Below are positions 3,593 through 13,711 of a stretch of DNA of 64,000 nt, one piece after another; within the stretch, counting starts at the first letter, position 1; each line of letters begins with the position of its first letter. The notes under the pieces are model-generated. The model was not told the origin of the DNA, searched no databases, and was given only the letters and a program-made list of their open reading frames with translations. Source of the DNA: Escherichia phage slur14; sequence record NC_028448.1, one strand, 5' to 3'. The position numbers and the translations under genes were made by a program.

Positions 3593-3806
3593 ATTTGACT
3601 TCCTCACCAGTACATAAATCGTATTCAACTAAACGAATAGGTTCATGAATGCCATATCCTTGAACAGAAATTTCTGTAGTAGGATAAATTCCATTAATAT
3701 CACCCATGTTCCATGCTTCGTTAAATTGCTGTTCGCCTGAATTACTAAACCATTCGGCGAAAGCATTTAGCACATCTTTAGAACCTTCAATAATTATCTT
3801 TGCCAT
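3585..3806 (-). CDS. hypothetical protein (T4 vs.5 position)
   Basis: 73-aa ORF with ATG start; 1-nt overlap with the upstream stop. Confidence 0.5.
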   Translation of the reverse strand: MAKIIIEGSKDVLNAFAEWFSNSGEQQFNEAWNMGDINGIYPTTEISVQGYGIHEPIRLVEYDLCTGEEVKYD

Positions 3807-4168
3807 TACAAACTCTCAGTAAAGGTACGAGCGATAACGTCGCGCTGCTGTTCCGGAGTCAGAGAGTTAAAGCGAACTGCATAACCGGATACACGGATGG
3901 TCAGCTGCGGATATTTTTCCGGATGCTTAACTGCATCTTCCAGAGTTTCACGACGCAGAACGTTAACGTTCAGGTGTTGACCACCTTCAATTTTAACTGT
4001 AGGCTGTTGCTCAATTTCAATTTCACGGGCATGCAAACCGTAGAAAATTTCTGGGTCTACAAAAGAGTCCTCTTTAAAGGTTTTAGAGACAATAATTCGT
4101 GCTTGAATACCATCTTCAAAATAAATAGTACCTTTATGTGTGCCTTCAAGAATTTGATATGCTTTCAT
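3806..4168 (-). CDS. autonomous glycyl-radical cofactor, GrcA/YfiD-like (T4 vs.6 position)
   Basis: 120 aa; C-terminal half ...[60 protein letters not shown] matches the glycyl-radical domain of E. coli GrcA / PFL C-terminus as recalled. Confidence 0.85.
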
Positions 4169-7393: not shown

Positions 7394-7412
<19 letters not shown>

Positions 7413-7882
7413 TCAGTGATAAAGTTATTTAAATTTTGAGTGTATTTCTTTTCATCAAAAATCTTTTGTTGTCTGCGTAGCCGCCATGGCATTTCAATGA
7501 ACGTGTACCATATCCCAGATAATATTGCTGCTGTAAAAATATTAACAAGTATAATTAAAAGAATCCAATCTTCCGTTCTGCCTACTGGACTTTCTCCAAA
7601 GAAGCAAAATACAAATGATGTCACAGGAAAACTAATAATGTACCACAGAATCATAATTTTATCTGTGAACCAATTAGCGTTCGTTAACTTAGCGCGACCA
7701 TTATGAATACATACGAACTTATCATCTGTTATAGTAGATGGCTTAACTGGTTGATATCCCATTCTAAACTCCCTAATCAACAAATTTTTCATATCTTCGG
7801 AACAACCATTCCAGTCAACTCTATCAACTGAAATGCCATCATCCCCATCATCTAAATCATACCAGCGAGTTTTTAAAATCAT
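7394..7882 (-). CDS. predicted membrane protein, member of a tandem paralogous set
   Basis: 162 aa; two hydrophobic helices; C-terminus ...FITECRKLK shared with the neighbouring ORFs. Confidence 0.55.
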
Positions 7883-8253
7883 TTAATTTTCCTACAATCA
7901 CTCACAAACTCTTCCATTGATTCATTTTCAATATAAGACATGTAGTTATTATATTCTTTTAATTGTATTTTGTAATCCTTTTTTCTTTGCCAATTTATTT
8001 TAAAATTATCATAATGAAAATATAACATGGTACCAAAGAATGAAAATAATGAAATCGCTATAGTATAATGAAGTTCACTCCAAACTTCTATTATATCTAT
8101 TATACCGCTGACGTTACTACGGATGTTTAAAATAAAACAGTCAATTAACAATCCAATAAGACTACCTGCAAGAGCTGCAAATGCTGATACGGCAAGAATT
8201 AATAGTGCCTCTGGAAACGAATATTTAACTTTATTTAGTTTTGGCTTTTGCAT
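7879..8253 (-). CDS. predicted membrane protein, paralog
   Basis: 124 aa; hydrophobic segments; C-terminus EEFVSDCRKIK; ATGA overlap with downstream gene. Confidence 0.55.
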   Translation of the reverse strand: MQKPKLNKVKYSFPEALLILAVSAFAALAGSLIGLLIDCFILNIRSNVSGIIDIIEVWSELHYTIAISLFSFFGTMLYFHYDNFKINWQRKKDYKIQLKEYNNYMSYIENESMEEFVSDCRKIK

Positions 8254-8627
8254 CGTGATTCCTTAACAAATTTCATAATTTCATCAAATTCATACGCAGC
8301 AAGTTTAAGCTGGTGTTCCTTTTTAATCTTTTTACACTGAGCTTTCCATTCACGTACACGTTTACGATAATGTCTTCCTTGATACCAGTATCCTACCCAA
8401 TTTACAGGTACTAATAAAAATGGAACTATCATTGGAAGAATTAATGTTGACGCAAATATTATATTAGATTCAATATCAGTCATAACATCTATAACTATTC
8501 CAACCCCCAGTAGAATTACAAATGATACAGCTATTACAGGACCTATTAATACATCAGTAGAAATTAGCTGGCGCTTTAATTCATACTTCAACGGTTTACT
8601 TGGAAGATACATTGATGGCTTTGACAT
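8235..8627 (-). CDS. predicted membrane protein, paralog
   Basis: ORF-track start is TTG; ATG at 8627 preceded by TAAGGAAT; two TM segments; C-terminus MKFVKESRCK. Confidence 0.5.
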   Translation of the reverse strand: MSKPSMYLPSKPLKYELKRQLISTDVLIGPVIAVSFVILLGVGIVIDVMTDIESNIIFASTLILPMIVPFLLVPVNWVGYWYQGRHYRKRVREWKAQCKKIKKEHQLKLAAYEFDEIMKFVKESRCKSQN

Positions 8628-9204
8628 ATTCTCTACATTCCTTAACAAATTTTTCTAATAATAAATCGCTTTCAAAATTGAGATTTTCTACGAATTTATC
8701 AAAAAGATCATCAACAATATTCAAGATATTCTTTTTACTAAGAATACGTTTATTTTCATGCTTCGTTTCAGAATCAACTATAAGAGTAAAGAAATATTTC
8801 TTGCCCTGAAATTTTACAGTAGTATCAATATAAAATAAATTTGACTTTTGTAAATTACGTTTAAACCGTGCATCACTTAAACTATAAACGCCAAGATAAT
8901 CATAATCGTCGTTTAAATAACAGACCGTCCATTCAGGAGAAACAAAATCAGTAAATTCAACGTCAAAATCGCATGTTAATAAATGAATTGATTCAATACT
9001 GTTAATAAGTATTCCAGGACGTATTAAAGACTTTTTACCTCTAGAAAATCCTCTAGAAAGACTTTCATCAGTTTCATATGAAGAACCCCAATAATAATTA
9101 CGTCCTTCTGCCATACGTTTAAGAGCATTTAATAATTGATCTGGAACATCAACCTGTCTTTGGAACTCTTCAAACATTGAATTGAAATCACTTTGCATTT
9201 TCAT
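8596..9204 (-). CDS. hypothetical protein sharing the C-terminal FVKECR motif
   Basis: 202 aa soluble ORF; C-terminus ...EKFVKECREYVKAINVSSK. Confidence 0.5.
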   Translation of the reverse strand: MKMQSDFNSMFEEFQRQVDVPDQLLNALKRMAEGRNYYWGSSYETDESLSRGFSRGKKSLIRPGILINSIESIHLLTCDFDVEFTDFVSPEWTVCYLNDDYDYLGVYSLSDARFKRNLQKSNLFYIDTTVKFQGKKYFFTLIVDSETKHENKRILSKKNILNIVDDLFDKFVENLNFESDLLLEKFVKECREYVKAINVSSK

Positions 9205-9224
9205 TCCTACTTACTCCAAGTAAT

Positions 9225-9240
9225 AGGGGCCGAAGCCCCT
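9225..9240 (-). terminator. stable UUCG-tetraloop hairpin (minus strand GGGGC-UUCG-GCCCC) downstream of the 9246..9839 gene
   Basis: Perfect 5-6 bp GC stem with UUCG loop on the transcribed strand; weak T tract, so possibly an RNA-stability element rather than a terminator. Confidence 0.4.
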
Positions 9241-9245
9241 TATCA

Positions 9246-9839
9246 TTATTTCAGAGAATTAATATATTCCTGAACATCGGCAGAGGTAGTTTCAACCCCA
9301 GAAATATTACCATTAAAGGTTTCAACTCGGGCGAGAGTATCTTCAATATCAACTTTAGTTAGCGCTGCAATTTCAACTACATCATCAGCAGTACTAATTC
9401 CAAGGGCATTTGCTGCACGAGTTTCACGGATATATTCCAATTTAACTGCAAGTTCTTGGCGAGCATCATCCAATTCAACTACTTTCTTGGCGATTTCAAT
9501 TCGCATTTCAGCATAACCATCAGCTTTAGTAGTCAACTGTTCAGCTGTTCGACGATATAGCAAGCCGAGTTTAGCATGCATTGTTACATCTTGACCTTCA
9601 GAAAGAAGCTTGCGAATTTCACGCTCTTTTGATTCGGCCTGTCGATTCTTTTCGACAATAAGTTCACGAATACGTTTTTCTTCATTAATAGATTTAACAG
9701 AAGCAGTTTTTAGATCTTTAATCTTATCAAGTAGTTTTGCTGCCGCAGCAGTATACTGTTCTTCAACAGATAAATTTTTAGCCATAGCAGAACCAAGTTT
9801 AGTGCGAATAAACTCAACAATTTTCTTCAGCATGTTCAT
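9246..9839 (-). CDS. coiled-coil protein, possibly PspA/IM30-like
   Basis: 197 aa, almost entirely heptad-like charged helices; architecture reminiscent of PspA (tentative); canonical early promoter upstream. Confidence 0.5.
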
Positions 9840-9884
9840 AGCATTTCCTTTAGTTAATTAAGGGTTTTTATAATCCGTGGGAGT

Positions 9885-9914
9885 ATTATACTCTACTCCC
9901 AAGAGTTTGTAAAC
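9885..9914 (-). promoter_or_regulatory. T4-type early promoter
   Basis: Minus strand GTTTAC-18nt-TATAAT between the 9915 stop and the 9839 start. Confidence 0.65.
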
Positions 9915-10250
9915 TTATTCTTCGTCCAATTCATCAATAAATTTATCGATACTACTATTAATAGACTCATCGATGATTAACAAAGCATCATCATCATCCA
10001 TAATATTAATATTTTCTAAAGCATCAATATAAGCTTGATTGACTATAGACCATGCCCTTTGAAAATATGGGGCTTCATCATCAGGACTGAACCAACGTAC
10101 ACCTTCAAAGATACGTTTGGCATAATCTAACACCCATTGTACAGGCATGTTTTGAGAACGTTCGTTAAACTCTTTAAAGTCCTTAGATTCAAAAAGCTCT
10201 TCAGGATAATAATTTCTATTACAAAAAGCTTTACTAAAGTTACGTTTCAT
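9915..10250 (-). CDS. hypothetical acidic protein
   Basis: 111-aa ORF with ATG start; acidic C-terminus DDDDALLIIDES...DELDEE. Confidence 0.5.
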   Translation of the reverse strand: MKRNFSKAFCNRNYYPEELFESKDFKEFNERSQNMPVQWVLDYAKRIFEGVRWFSPDDEAPYFQRAWSIVNQAYIDALENINIMDDDDALLIIDESINSSIDKFIDELDEE

Positions 10251-10276
10251 AATGTTCTCCTCAAAGTTATAGGCTC

Positions 10277-10306
10277 ATAATATCTCAATCATGAGCCTGT
10301 GTAAAC
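10277..10306 (-). promoter_or_regulatory. T4-type early promoter
   Basis: Minus strand GTTTAC-18nt-TATTAT; overlaps inverted repeat aggctcat...atgagcct. Confidence 0.6.
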
Positions 10307-10570
10307 TTATTTCATATTATTGAAATATTCTTCTGCGATTTCATCGTTATCATGGTAAACTTTAGAAGACAGTTTAACATAACCTTCAGCAGTGAACATG
10401 TTAATCACAACCTTTACAGTATACCACTGACCATCTTCATTACCCATTACTGCGTAAGTTTCAAACATCGGATGATCAGGACCGATAACTTTAATATCAT
10501 TCACTGTACGACCAAAATCTTCTGAAACACATTTCATAAAGAAGTTGAACAGTTCGCCGTAATTATCCAT
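10307..10570 (-). CDS. hypothetical protein
   Basis: ORF-track start TTG; ATG at 10570 preceded by GGAGAA RBS; 87 aa. Confidence 0.5.
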   Translation of the reverse strand: MDNYGELFNFFMKCVSEDFGRTVNDIKVIGPDHPMFETYAVMGNEDGQWYTVKVVINMFTAEGYVKLSSKVYHDNDEIAEEYFNNMK

Positions 10571-10613
10571 TTCATTCTCCAAGTTGTTTTCTGTATCAGT
10601 AGTTGATAGTTGT

Positions 10614-10643
10614 ATAGTACCATGGAAGGGTAAGGATGTAAAC
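10614..10643 (-). promoter_or_regulatory. T4-type early promoter with A/T-rich upstream element
   Basis: Minus strand GGTTTAC-18nt-TGgTACTAT preceded by an AAAA/TTTT-rich stretch. Confidence 0.6.
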
Positions 10644-10774
10644 CGTTTTGTGAAAAAATTTTTAAAAAGTTTTGGGGAATTCTAGGGCAGGGAGGGGCAA
10701 TTAAAAGATAGGATAATATATTATAAAGGGTAGAAACTAAATGATGTCTAGAGAGGCCCGGAAAGGCCTAGATA

Positions 10775-10811: not shown

Positions 10812-11285
10812 TTATTTGATTTGTTTAGCAGACCAAATGCGGTCTTTAATAATTTTTTGAATGTCTTCAACATACTCTAGGTCATGAGCATGTGGATTAT
10901 CTTTGAAACTATGAGCTCGCGCAAGTTTCTGGCCTTCGGTCTTAATTATCAAAAGTTCTTTAAGAATTGCTTCATACCTAGAGATAATTCCTTTAGCAAT
11001 ATTTTTTTCTTGTGCTGCTTTAGGGTCAGCCTTAGGAGCAGGTTTACCTGAAGCCTTTGCAAAAGCAGCTCCAGTAGCAACTAAACTTTTCCAAGCCATA
11101 CTAACTGCATTCCCTGTAAATCCTTCGGCTTTCATATCACGAGCAAATTGGAATCGTGATTCATCGGAAGCATCTTTATAGGAATATTTACCCGCGGCAA
11201 TGGCAGCTTTTGCGACAGCTTGAATTTCGGTGCTAGATGCTTCATTTAACACCGCTTCATTTAAAAATTGAGCATATGATTTCAT
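10812..11285 (-). CDS. internal-protein-like protein with capsid targeting sequence (cassette)
   Basis: 157 aa; MKSYAQFLNEAVLNEA... with two LNE|A motifs; own TATAAATA late promoter upstream and terminator downstream. Confidence 0.65.
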   Translation of the reverse strand: MKSYAQFLNEAVLNEASSTEIQAVAKAAIAAGKYSYKDASDESRFQFARDMKAEGFTGNAVSMAWKSLVATGAAFAKASGKPAPKADPKAAQEKNIAKGIISRYEAILKELLIIKTEGQKLARAHSFKDNPHAHDLEYVEDIQKIIKDRIWSAKQIK

Positions 11286-12992: not shown

Positions 12993-13601
12993 TTATTTAT
13001 TACGTGAAAAAGATTGTTCTATCAATTCTGGACACTTTCGTTCTATCCATTTTCTAGCTTTTTGTGGGCTTATACCTATTATTTTAGCAGCTTTACTAAC
13101 CCATCCAAATTTAGAATAATCGATTTTAACTAATTCTTCGTAAATTTCATCAGTTAAAATCTTTTCATTAATATTTACCAGTAAATGATATAATTTATTA
13201 TCATTAGCAATTTTAATGAATCTTTTATAGTTTCCGCCTTTACTTAAACCTAATGAAGTAATTGCAGATGATATAGTAGCCGAATTTAATAATGCGTTTA
13301 AAATTTCTTCATCACTAACATTATAACGCTTTTTATTATTTTTAATATTTTTACCAGCAAAAGTATCAGTTTGCGAATGGCAATTTGGACATAATAATCT
13401 TAAATTTGATTTAAGATGATTTTTATTATTTCCATCAATATGGTCTAATTGCAGAACAATATGCTTATTTTGCCATTTTGAAATTTTACAAATTGCACAC
13501 TCATATGGAAAAATATTTTCTTTTATTATTTTGTCTTTCAGCTTTCCTGTACTAAAATTTGGATGTTTTCCTTCAAAAATTTCAGCTAATTTAGTATCCA
13601 T
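12993..13601 (-). CDS. free-standing HNH homing endonuclease with C-terminal helix-turn-helix
   Basis: ATG at 13601 (ORF-track TTG at 13625); HNH zinc core CAICK...LDHIDGNNKNH...LLCPNCH; C-terminal HTH-like KAAKIIGISPQKARKWIERK; stop 7 nt from tRNA-Leu 5' end. Confidence 0.8.
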   Translation of the reverse strand: MDTKLAEIFEGKHPNFSTGKLKDKIIKENIFPYECAICKISKWQNKHIVLQLDHIDGNNKNHLKSNLRLLCPNCHSQTDTFAGKNIKNNKKRYNVSDEEILNALLNSATISSAITSLGLSKGGNYKRFIKIANDNKLYHLLVNINEKILTDEIYEELVKIDYSKFGWVSKAAKIIGISPQKARKWIERKCPELIEQSFSRNK

Positions 13602-13711
13602 AATATAATTCCCAATTATTAACAAAGGCTCTCAAACAAGAACCCTTGATGATAGAGGGTATTAATCAGTGCGGTATGAGTTAATAATAACAAATAATTC
13701 TTAAAGCATAT

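What the first reader, a model, noticed from the sequence alone, without database searches (positions are those of the whole stretch)
9246..9839. Early coiled-coil protein with PspA/IM30-like architecture next to the membrane-protein array
The 197-aa product is almost wholly charged amphipathic helix with heptad periodicity, as in the phage-shock protein PspA family that stabilises stressed inner membranes. It has its own canonical early promoter and a UUCG hairpin downstream, and lies directly upstream of the paralogous membrane-protein genes. The assignment is tentative, from composition and length only.
Basis: inference. Interest (0 to 1): 0.4.

Follow-up and report, generated by a model that had tools for sequence, protein, structure and literature searches.

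The report
Phage T4 e.6: a PspA/Vipp1 homologue
The 197-residue early protein is the orthologue of phage T4 gene e.6, so far of unknown function, and it turns out to be a divergent relative of the bacterial membrane-repair proteins PspA and Vipp1, so T4-like phages probably carry their own membrane-stabilising polymer.

Summary
The ORF at 9246-9839 (minus strand) is real. It is 99% identical to T4 e.6, which is still annotated "conserved hypothetical" (PHROG 1203, unknown function).

- A profile of 43 e.6 relatives finds Vipp1 as the best solved-structure sequence (E 7e-5), aligned in register from residue 1 to about 147.
- Two distant family members pass Pfam's own cut-off for PspA_IM30.
- hhalign against a PspA/Vipp1 alignment gives 90-92% probability. 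It scores 46, against at most 19 for reversed and shuffled controls.
- Two AlphaFold models (pLDDT 73 and 81) show an N-terminal helix, a long hairpin and short C-terminal helices. The top 11-12 Foldseek PDB hits for each are all Vipp1.

The promoter (GTTTACA-17-TATAAT) and the GGGGC-UUCG-GCCCC hairpin are present. In T4 the RNA is early, the protein is detected, and knock-down costs no fitness.

New lead: the ORF immediately after e.6 in 35 of 37 related loci, and all four genes after it here, end in a tail motif F-[IV]-x-x-C-[RKI]. The motif was never seen in same-strand ORFs upstream. It may be a docking peptide.

The function (membrane protection) is inferred, not tested.

The parts
9246..9839 (-). 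e.6 coding sequence, 197 aa; a divergent member of the PspA/IM30 (ESCRT-III superfamily) proteins
   Evidence: ORF. 99% identical to T4 e.6. PHROG 1203. Homology to PspA/Vipp1.
9774..9836 (-). Residues 2-22: predicted N-terminal amphipathic helix alpha0 ([21 protein letters not shown]), the likely membrane anchor
   Evidence: Helix 2-22 in the second model. Hydrophobic moment of residues 2-19 is 0.46, against 0.42 for PspA and 0.57 for Vipp1, with net charge +3. Aligns column for column with Vipp1 residues 1-22.
9600..9767 (-). Residues 25-80: helix alpha1, first arm of the hairpin
   Evidence: AlphaFold models, pLDDT 88-98. Aligned to PspA/Vipp1 alpha1.
9405..9584 (-). Residues 86-145: helix alpha2/3, second arm of the hairpin. 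It carries the family's most conserved stretches, [10 protein letters not shown] and KLEYIRET
   Evidence: AlphaFold models. Conserved columns. Aligned to PspA LARAALIEKQ and following residues.
9252..9389 (-). Residues 151-196: short C-terminal helices (alpha4, ARVETF segment, alpha5 [11 protein letters not shown]), with lower model confidence
   Evidence: ARVETF aligns with PspA ARFESF. The C-terminus aligns with PspA/Vipp1 ...EQLAQLKAK in the global hhalign.
9885..9914 (-). Early-type promoter GTTTACA-17-TATAAT
   Evidence: 11/12 consensus match, the best in the region. Sequence read directly. T4 e.6 RNA is classed as early (PMC9697503).
9844..9851 (-). Shine-Dalgarno AAAGGAAA, with its GGA core six bases before the ATG
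   Evidence: Read directly from the sequence. Conserved in T4.
9226..9239 (-). GGGGC-UUCG-GCCCC hairpin between e.6 and e.5
   Evidence: Conserved in T4, and kept in Klebsiella phage pzk-kv8 with changed stem bases and the same UUCG loop.
8596..9204 (-). e.5, 202 aa, no predicted TM segment. Tail motif FVKECR at 8632-8649
   Evidence: PHROG 2607, unknown function.
8235..8648 (-). e.4, a two-TM protein. Variant tail motif FVKESRC at 8250-8270
   Evidence: PHROG 2604.
7879..8253 (-). e.3, a membrane protein. Tail motif FVSDCR at 7891-7908
   Evidence: PHROG 2330.
7394..7882 (-). e.2, a two-TM protein with a 75-aa N-terminal soluble part. Tail motif FITECR at 7406-7423
   Evidence: PHROG 2203, 'membrane protein'.

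Best explanation
The gene is the orthologue of T4 e.6. It encodes a compact (197 aa), highly divergent member of the PspA/IM30(Vipp1)/LiaH family, the bacterial branch of the ESCRT-III superfamily.

**Shown**
- Sequence-profile and predicted-fold homology covers the whole protein: N-terminal amphipathic helix alpha0, the alpha1-alpha2/3 hairpin, and short alpha4/alpha5 helices.
- The gene has an early-type promoter. In T4, the RNA is early and the protein is detected.
- The gene is conserved across Straboviridae.
- It is always followed by genes whose products end in F-[IV]-x-x-C-[RKI].

**Inferred**
- Like its cellular relatives, e.6 binds the cytoplasmic face of the inner membrane through alpha0 and the hairpin. 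There it polymerises into rings, rods or carpets that seal or reshape damaged bilayer. This would keep the proton-motive force up during infection.
- A phage copy makes sense for a known reason. T4 shuts off host transcription within minutes (established knowledge). The host's sigma-54-dependent psp induction therefore cannot respond to damage caused by DNA injection, superinfection, holin accumulation or membrane-depolarising abortive-infection systems.
- More speculatively, the cytoplasmic tails of the neighbouring membrane proteins e.2-e.4 and of soluble e.5 recruit or regulate the polymer. PspB/C do this for PspA, and LiaI does it for LiaH.
For: **Identity**
- The window is 100% identical to phage slur03 over the queried 1.1-kb stretch containing e.6.
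- The protein is 99% identical to T4 e.6.

**Homology**
- A1 (28 sequences) against PDB gives in-register but non-significant Vipp1 hits.
- A2 (43 sequences, including distant representatives from the exhaustive search of 1.84 billion proteins) gives Vipp1 chains as eight of the nine best hits. E ranges from 7e-5 to 2e-3, with columns 1-146 against 1-147.
- P0185 (35.1 bits) and P0187 (39.0 bits) exceed the PF04012 cut-off of 33.9.
- P0187 lies on a T4-like contig with UvsX and a DnaB-type helicase (Pfam DnaB_C; gene 41 in T4 terms). It aligns full length with the window protein at E 1e-12.
- hhalign gives probability 92.4% (E 5e-7) and 89.9% (E 1.7e-6, 167 columns). The global alignment gives 91.9%.
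- The reversed template and 40 shuffled templates score at most 19.4, against 46.2 for the real one.
- BLASTP against E. coli PspA is in register, 38-183 against 38-179.

**Fold**
- Helices at 2-22, 25-80, 86-145, 151-160, 166-175 and 186-196; pLDDT 80.7.
- The Foldseek PDB top 12 and top 11 are all Vipp1. Next come archaeal CdvB2, PspA and CHMP1B.
- Hairpin-only chains superpose at 3.2 Å over 123 columns.
- Alpha0 amphipathicity is comparable to PspA and Vipp1.

**Expression**
- Promoter. RNA early and protein detected in T4.

**Neighbourhood**
- Strict tail motif: 110 of 608 downstream same-strand ORFs, 0 of 559 upstream same-strand ORFs, 3 of 739 opposite-strand ORFs, in 37 loci.
- In 35 of 37 loci the adjacent ORF carries the motif.
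- Only 3 of 174 ORFs in the whole window carry it: e.5, e.3 and e.2.
- Synonymous codons vary at the motif, so the constraint acts on the protein.
Against: - The window protein itself gives no Pfam PspA_IM30 hit even at E 10 and no NCBIfam PspA or LiaH hit.
- Only 5 of 43 family members touch PF04012 at all. The two that pass do so by 1-5 bits.
- The A1 profile found no cellular PspA among 1.84 billion representatives at E 1e-3 or better.
- Foldseek E-values are modest (about 2e-4). Global rmsd is large, because the models are closed monomers while the Vipp1 chains are open polymer conformers.
- Long helical hairpins are prone to false similarity.
- The PspA template profile was shallow (Neff about 2).
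- The alpha0 amphipathicity test is marginal: 5.5% of shuffles reach the observed value.
- Nothing here tests membrane binding, polymerisation or any physiological effect.
- Knock-down of T4 e.6 gave no fitness defect in standard culture (PMC11879866 supplement).
- No PspB, PspC or PspF relatives lie nearby.
- The link between e.6 and the tail motif could reflect conserved gene order alone. The 37 loci are related phages, not independent samples.
Confidence: 0.65

Rival explanations
1. e.6 is a PspA homologue, but it works as a mimic aimed at the host Psp system rather than at the membrane. It might bind PspF, PspB or PspC, or co-polymerise with host PspA, to silence or redirect the host envelope-stress response.
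For: The homology covers alpha1-alpha3. By established knowledge, E. coli PspA uses this region for regulator and partner contacts. The protein is made early.
Against: - Identity to E. coli PspA is only about 24%, so specific host interfaces are unlikely to be preserved.
- T4 shuts off host transcription anyway, so repressing PspF would gain little (established knowledge).
- The family is kept in phages of Aeromonas, Klebsiella, Edwardsiella and Morganella, whose hosts have different Psp repertoires.
- The amphipathic alpha0 is retained.
Confidence: 0.12
2. e.6 is an ESCRT-III-like polymer used for active membrane remodelling or lysis control rather than repair. One example would be working with e.2-e.5 to time holin triggering or maintain lysis inhibition.
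For: - The fold and family are the same as those of membrane-remodelling polymers.
- The gene sits in the lysozyme (e) gene neighbourhood, with small membrane proteins.
- It is dispensable in ordinary culture, as lysis-inhibition genes are.
Against: - The RNA is early, whereas lysis genes act late.
- No known lysis protein shares the tail motif, and none is adjacent in the distant phages.
- In RB43 and GAP161 the gene sits between nrdD and nrdG, not near lysis genes.
Confidence: 0.12
3. The resemblance to PspA is convergent. On this view e.6 is an unrelated coiled-coil hairpin acting as a scaffold or adaptor for something else. The database label 'host specificity protein' would be one such reading.
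For: - There is no direct Pfam hit for the window protein.
- Many weak coiled-coil matches appear, such as HAUS6 and Seryl_tRNA_N.
- UniRef and RAST name it 'host specificity protein'.
Against: - The alignment to PspA/Vipp1 is in register from residue 1 through about 171 and at the C-terminus.
- Reversed, shuffled and heptad-block-shuffled controls fail.
- Among all PDB sequences, coiled coils included, Vipp1 ranks first.
- Two relatives pass the curated Pfam cut-off.
- An early gene is unlikely to encode a virion specificity protein. No tail-fibre similarity was found.
Confidence: 0.08

Closest known systems
E. coli PspA (phage shock protein A, PF04012)
   Same: - Similar length class (197 against 222 aa).
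- N-terminal amphipathic helix, alpha1-alpha2/3 hairpin with a G...A..AL tip, the ARFESF/ARVETF segment, and the ...L..LK C-terminus.
- hhalign probability is about 90% over 167-198 columns.
   Different: - Only about 24% identity.
- About 25 residues shorter in the alpha4-alpha5 region.
- Encoded by a lytic phage and driven by an early sigma-70-type promoter, instead of sigma-54/PspF.
- No PspB, PspC or PspF nearby.
- Below the Pfam threshold.
Vipp1/IM30 of cyanobacteria and chloroplasts (for example Synechocystis sll0617, PDB 7o3w; Nostoc, PDB 6zvr)
   Same: - Best sequence-profile hit in the PDB (E 7e-5).
- Best fold hits.
- Same helix order, including alpha0.
   Different: - e.6 lacks the Vipp1-specific C-terminal extension (alpha6).
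- There are no thylakoids in the hosts.
- Ring or filament assembly has not been shown for e.6.
B. subtilis LiaH with its membrane anchor LiaI
   Same: - A PspA-family protein encoded next to small membrane proteins that, for LiaI, recruit it to the membrane (review PMC7619361).
- The distant e.6 relative P0187 gives a weak in-register LiaH hit (E 0.005).
   Different: - There is no sequence relation between e.2-e.5 and LiaI.
- The phage neighbours share a Cys-containing tail motif unknown from Lia or Psp systems.
- The interaction is hypothetical.
ESCRT-III proper (archaeal CdvB/CdvB2, eukaryotic CHMP1B/Snf7; Snf7-family proteins of giant viruses)
   Same: - Same superfamily fold.
- CdvB2 and CHMP1B appear after the Vipp1 block in the fold searches.
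- A Megaviridae Snf7-family protein appears in the viral fold search at E 0.11.
   Different: - No sequence-level match.
- e.6 has the bacterial-type N-terminal alpha0.
- No Vps4-type ATPase or MIM motif was identified.

Membership tests
PspA/IM30 family (Pfam PF04012) | The protein itself matches the Pfam model at or above the gathering score (33.9 bits) | tested here: not met
   No PF04012 hit for the window protein even at E 10.
PspA/IM30 family (Pfam PF04012) | Clear relatives of the protein match the Pfam model at or above the gathering score (a transitive link) | tested here: met
   - P0187 scores 39.0 bits and P0185 scores 35.1 bits, both over model positions 2-143.
- Both were found by the e.6 profile, at E 4e-20 and 1e-21.
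- P0187 aligns full length with the window protein (E 1e-12) and lies on a T4-like contig.
PspA/IM30 family (Pfam PF04012) | Profile-level sequence similarity to bona fide members, in register along alpha0-alpha3, exceeding composition controls | tested here: met
   - A2 profile against PDB: Vipp1 at E 7e-5, 1-146 against 1-147.
- hhalign 90-92%.
- Controls score at most 19.4, against 46.2 for the real template.
PspA/IM30 family (Pfam PF04012) | ESCRT-III-type helix order: alpha0, long alpha1-alpha2/3 hairpin, then alpha4 and alpha5 | tested here: met
   This rests on prediction only. Two AlphaFold models have helices at 2-22, 25-80, 86-145, 151-160, 166-175 and 186-196. The top 11-12 Foldseek PDB hits are all Vipp1.
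PspA/IM30 family (Pfam PF04012) | Amphipathic N-terminal helix able to insert into membrane | tested here: inconclusive
   The hydrophobic moment is 0.46 (PspA 0.42, Vipp1 0.57) and net charge is +3. However, 5.5% of shuffles reach the same moment. The family median is 0.43.
PspA/IM30 family (Pfam PF04012) | Self-assembly into large rings, rods or carpets, and binding and protection of membranes | not testable with these tools
   This needs purified protein, EM, liposome assays or in vivo imaging.
Proteobacterial Psp system (PspA with PspB, PspC, PspF) | Partner genes pspB, pspC and pspF in the neighbourhood, with sigma-54 control | tested here: not met
   - The neighbours are e.7, e.8 and e.5-e.2, all PHROGs of unknown function. 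Only e.5 was scanned against NCBIfam, with no hit; the neighbours were not scanned against Pfam.
- The promoter is of sigma-70 early type.
ESCRT-III/Snf7 family proper | Sequence or fold match to Snf7, CHMP or CdvB better than to other helical proteins | tested here: inconclusive
   No sequence hit was found. The fold hits are weak (E 0.09-0.4) and come behind the Vipp1 block: CdvB2 (9s97) and CHMP1B (6tz5, 6tz9).

The most novel reading that the evidence does not exclude
e.6 and the genes that follow it form a phage-specific membrane module with no described counterpart. In this reading a viral ESCRT-III/PspA-like polymer is recruited, capped or regulated through one short cytoplasmic peptide, F-[IV]-x-x-C-[RKI]. 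That peptide is appended to the C-termini of otherwise unrelated proteins: the two-TM proteins e.2-e.4 and soluble e.5-like proteins. The module would let T4-like phages keep the inner membrane energised after host shut-off, and possibly neutralise defence systems that kill by depolarising the membrane.
Probability: 0.3. Interest if true: 0.8.

Novelty: new member of a known kind. Interest (0 to 1): 0.6.

Why it matters
T4 is the reference lytic phage, yet about half of its genes have no function. As late as 2025, e.6 was listed as 'unknown function' (PMC11879866 supplement). In ten capped full-text searches and the five papers opened on PspA/ESCRT-III evolution, jumbo phages and T4 functional genomics, I found no description of a phage-encoded PspA, Vipp1 or ESCRT-III relative in tailed phages.

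If the assignment is right, several things follow:
- The ESCRT-III superfamily has a widespread viral branch in bacteria, present in more than 1000 sequenced Straboviridae genomes.
- A long-standing question becomes directly testable with one deletion mutant: how a phage that has destroyed the host's ability to induce its own envelope-stress response keeps the membrane sealed and energised. This covers the period through injection, superinfection and hours of lysis inhibition.
- The conserved tail motif supplies a short list of candidate partners.
- The same module is a plausible counter-measure to membrane-depolarising abortive-infection systems. That is relevant to therapeutic T4-like phages.

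Tried and rejected
**Searches that gave nothing or too little**
- Single-sequence searches gave nothing useful. Pfam returned only weak coiled-coil noise, PDB phmmer returned nothing, and NCBIfam returned nothing relevant.
- The 28-sequence profile A1 found only e.6-type phage proteins, no cellular PspA, in the exhaustive scan of 1.84 billion representatives. Its Vipp1 hits in the PDB were non-significant.
- Searching the word-indexed 5.8-billion database with the broad profile A2 added no PspA.
- P0187 alone against the PDB gave nothing.
- The scan of bacterial genomes for PspA returned only enterobacterial sequences (78-100% identity). The PspA template profile therefore stayed shallow.
- A2 was too diverse for the viral-contig scan, so A1 was used instead.

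**Ideas rejected**
- *The tail motif is a by-product of a nucleotide element (ribosome-binding site or translational coupling) for the overlapping downstream gene.* Every motif position uses several synonymous codons, and the distance to the stop varies from 12 to 78 nt.
- *'Host specificity protein'.* This is an automatic label with no supporting similarity, and it sits on an early gene.
- *The hairpin is an intrinsic terminator for e.6.* There is no U-run on the coding strand.

**Literature**
None turned up work on e.6 function or on phage PspA homologues.

Full report
**What is there**

The window is a Tequatrovirus genome segment. The queried 1.1-kb stretch containing the ORF is 100% identical to Escherichia phage slur03. 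The ORF at 9246-9839 on the minus strand starts with ATG and encodes 197 aa. It differs from T4 gene e.6 at 2 of 197 residues.

T4's reference record calls e.6 a 'conserved hypothetical protein'. PHROGs files it under phrog_1203, 'unknown function' (E 8e-88). Other databases call it hypothetical or, through automatic annotation, 'host specificity protein'.

tblastn finds the gene in 1098 of 50,697 phage records. Their hosts include Escherichia, Shigella, Klebsiella, Enterobacter, Aeromonas, Yersinia, Citrobacter, Salmonella, Cronobacter and Edwardsiella, and identity goes down to about 32%.

**The observation**

Promoter and ribosome-binding site:
It matches 11 of 12 consensus positions and is the best site in 8500-10700.
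- A Shine-Dalgarno sequence, AAAGGAAA, has its GGA core six bases before the ATG.
- T4 keeps the -35 element and has TATTAT at -10.

Hairpin:
- GGGGC-UUCG-GCCCC lies at 9226-9239. The 46-nt stretch containing it, which also forms a second small hairpin, has a minimum free energy of -14.5 kcal/mol.
- It is identical in T4. A Klebsiella phage keeps it with changed stem bases and the same UUCG loop.
- No U-run follows it on the coding strand, so it is a stable intercistronic hairpin rather than a demonstrated terminator.

Experimental data on the T4 orthologue:
- The RNA is classed as early, and the protein is detected with 'middle' kinetics (PMC9697503 supplement).
- Knock-down causes no fitness loss. 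The same holds for e.2-e.8 (PMC11879866 supplement).

Two details of the finding need correction:
- Charged residues are 34% of the protein, not 'almost wholly'.
- The gene directly downstream is e.5, a 202-aa protein without predicted transmembrane segments. The membrane-protein genes e.4, e.3 and e.2 follow it.

**Is it PspA-like?**

On its own the protein matches nothing. Pfam gives only weak coiled-coil noise, and the PDB sequence search gives nothing. The relationship appears when the family is used.

Sequence evidence:
- The 5.8-billion-protein search gave 47 relatives. An exhaustive profile search of 1.84 billion representatives gave 45, all phage-type proteins of about 200 aa, reaching E 3e-6.
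- A profile of 28 close relatives already placed Vipp1 (Synechocystis sll0617) among the weak PDB hits. The alignment was in register (4-141 against 4-143) but the E-values were only 1.4-3.
- Adding the distant representatives (43 sequences, alignment A2) made Vipp1 chains eight of the nine best PDB sequences. E ranged from 7e-5 to 2e-3, with profile positions 1-146 aligned to residues 1-147.
- Scanned one by one, five of the 43 members touch Pfam PspA_IM30. Two pass its curated cut-off of 33.9 bits: P0187 at 39.0 and P0185 at 35.1.
- P0187 lies on a T4-like contig next to UvsX and a DnaB-type helicase. It aligns with the window protein over its full length at 24% identity and E 1e-12.
- Profile-profile comparison of A2 with a PspA/Vipp1 alignment gives 92.4% probability (E 5e-7). 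With 80 enterobacterial PspA sequences plus Vipp1 it gives 89.9% (E 1.7e-6, 167 columns).
- The global alignment (91.9%) also pairs ARVETF with PspA ARFESF. It pairs the C-terminal [13 protein letters not shown] with DDAISEQLAQLKAK.

Controls: the reversed template scores 19.4. Twenty column-shuffled and twenty heptad-block-shuffled templates score at most 19.3. The real template scores 46.2. Composition and heptad periodicity therefore do not explain the match.

**Predicted fold**

AlphaFold2 with A1 gave pLDDT 73. With A2 it gave pLDDT 80.7 and pTM 0.65.

The helices fall at 2-22, 25-80, 86-145, 151-160, 166-175 and 186-196. This is an N-terminal helix, a 56+60-residue hairpin with pLDDT above 90, and short C-terminal helices of lower confidence. 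It is the helix order of PspA, Vipp1 and ESCRT-III.

Foldseek against the PDB:
- The top 12 hits (first model) and top 11 hits (second model) are exclusively Vipp1 chains, with E from 2e-4 to 5e-2.
- Archaeal CdvB2, E. coli and Synechocystis PspA, and CHMP1B follow.
- Global rmsd values are large. The models are closed monomers, while the Vipp1 chains are open polymer conformers.
- Hairpin-only chains fit at 3.2 Å over 123 columns.

Residues 2-19 have a helical hydrophobic moment of 0.46, against 0.42 for PspA and 0.57 for Vipp1, with net charge +3. The shuffle test is only marginal.

In the viral structure library, the hits below E 1e-5 are other uncharacterised phage proteins. These include Citrobacter phage vB_CfrM_CfP1, Erwinia phage phiEa2809, Klebsiella phage UPM 2146 and Serratia phage Muldoon.

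I put the probability that e.6 is a true, very divergent PspA/IM30-family protein at about 0.85-0.9.

**Surroundings: a conserved tail motif**

The four genes after e.6 all end in a common peptide:
- e.5: ...EKFVKECREYVKAINVSSK
- e.4: ...MKFVKESRCKSQN
- e.3: ...EEFVSDCRKIK
- e.2: ...[11 protein letters not shown]

In this window:
- The strict pattern F[IV]xxC[RKI] occurs in only 3 of the 174 ORFs of at least 55 aa on both strands. All three are these tails. The expectation is about 3e-4 per tail.
- e.2, e.3 and e.4 have hydrophobic segments. By the positive-inside rule (my inference) they are N-in/C-in, so the tails would be cytoplasmic.

In related phages:
- The same tail sits on the ORF or ORFs directly after e.6 in T4, RB43, GAP161, Aeromonas phages 65 and AS-zj, Klebsiella phage pzk-kv8 and Enterobacter phage myPSH1140.
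- In 37 IMG/VR loci with an e.6 relative (49-98% identity), the strict motif is found in 110 of 608 same-strand ORFs within 6 kb downstream. It is found in 0 of 559 same-strand ORFs within 6 kb upstream, and in 3 of 739 ORFs on the other strand.
- In 35 of those 37 loci, the ORF starting within 150 nt of the e.6 stop carries the motif.

Nature of the constraint:
- The bodies of these proteins are mostly unrelated by BLAST.
- Every motif position uses several synonymous codons, and the distance to the stop varies from 12 to 78 nt.
- The constraint is therefore on the peptide, not on a ribosome-binding or coupling element.

The loci are related phages with conserved gene order, so these counts are not independent events. 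The persistence of the tail while the rest of the proteins diverges beyond recognition is the informative part.

**How it most likely works**

Shown:
- family-level homology and predicted fold;
- an early-type promoter, with early expression and detected protein in the T4 orthologue;
- conservation across Straboviridae;
- the invariant neighbourhood.

Inferred from what PspA, LiaH and Vipp1 do (PMC8281802; PMC7619361):
- e.6 binds the inner membrane through alpha0 and the hairpin. It polymerises there to seal or reshape damaged bilayer and preserve the proton-motive force.
- T4 abolishes host transcription early (established knowledge), so the sigma-54/PspF-dependent host response cannot be induced during infection. 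An early phage copy would fill that gap.
- The tails may dock e.6 onto e.2-e.4, analogous to PspB/C with PspA or LiaI with LiaH. Equally, they may serve something unrelated to e.6.

Dispensability in rich culture fits an accessory, condition-dependent role.

Rival explanations:
- a decoy aimed at the host Psp system;
- an active role in lysis control or membrane remodelling;
- convergence of an unrelated coiled coil.

**Comparison and novelty**

- The closest known proteins are Vipp1/IM30 and PspA. The closest system-level analogy is LiaH-LiaI.
- e.6 differs in several ways. It is phage-encoded, shorter in the alpha4-alpha5 region, below Pfam's threshold, under an early sigma-70-type promoter, without PspB/C/F, and followed by tail-motif proteins.
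- I found no paper in the held library that links e.6, or any tailed-phage protein, to PspA, Vipp1 or ESCRT-III.
- Two 2022-2025 T4 functional-genomics data sets still list e.6 as unknown.
- I file it as a new member of a known kind: a viral branch of the PspA/IM30 family. The tail-motif module is a possible new variant that remains to be tested.

**Limits**

- No experiment or multimer prediction was possible.
- The PspA template profile was shallow.
- The Pfam passes in relatives are narrow.
- Foldseek E-values are modest.

Noticed in passing
window 7406-7423, 7891-7908, 8250-8270, 8632-8649 (minus strand); also L086-L091 and L093-L130 downstream of the e.6 homologue: A C-terminal peptide motif F-[IV]-x-x-C-[RKI] ends e.2, e.3 and e.5, with the variant FVKESRC in e.4. 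It also ends the ORFs that follow e.6 in distantly related phages. The counts are 110 of 608 downstream ORFs, against 0 of 559 upstream ORFs. The bodies of these proteins are otherwise mostly unrelated, and synonymous codons vary at the motif.
   Followed up: yes
L085 (T4 NC_000866) 3653-3961, compared with window 7394-7882: T4's own e.2 is only 102 aa. It ends after the first hydrophobic segment and lacks the tail motif. This phage has a 162-aa e.2 with two TM segments and the motif. The T4 reference gene therefore looks truncated.
   Followed up: partly
L090 5067-6117 and 6441-6638; L091 4772-5325; L088 220-759: A second, different family of small proteins lies near e.6 in Klebsiella, Enterobacter and Aeromonas phages. 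They all end in W-x-S-S-S-x-x-C at the very C-terminus, for example ...GAWVSSSEMC and ...GVWLSSSDMC. None is present in this window.
   Followed up: partly
window 9879-9900 (minus strand): An inverted repeat, GGGAGTA-N8-TACTCCC, encloses the -10 hexamer of the e.6 promoter. As RNA the stretch has a minimum free energy of -14 kcal/mol, z -4.1, with 0 of 200 shuffles folding as well. It would form in read-through transcripts from e.7. It is absent from T4 at this position.
   Followed up: partly
window 9205-9224 (minus strand): Just after the UUCG hairpin, a second small predicted stem (UUACUUG/UAAGUAG) pairs the GGAG Shine-Dalgarno of e.5. This could couple e.5 translation to RNA structure.
   Followed up: no
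window 12993-13625 (minus strand): A 210-aa ORF with an HNH-type signature (CAICK...HIDGNNKNH...CPNCH) lies next to the tRNA cluster, where T4 carries the GIY-YIG homing endonuclease segB. It is probably a different mobile endonuclease.
   Followed up: no
window 10812-11285 (minus strand): A 157-aa Ala/Lys-rich ORF (annotated RB32ORF133c in slur03) lies between e.8 and the tRNA genes. T4 has no protein-coding gene annotated between e.8 and its first tRNA gene; it carries the small RNAs rnaC and rnaD there.
   Followed up: no
database labels for e.6 homologues: Many records and UniRef clusters name this protein 'host specificity protein', and one names it 'tail completion protein'. Nothing found here supports either label, and the T4 orthologue's RNA is classed as early. 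These look like propagated automatic annotations.
   Followed up: partly
L086 3654-3947 (RB43): The RB43 reference annotates e.6 as a 97-aa fragment. tblastn matches residues 52-197 of the query there, and the sister phage GAP161 has an intact 198-aa gene. The RB43 gene may be disrupted or mis-called.
   Followed up: no
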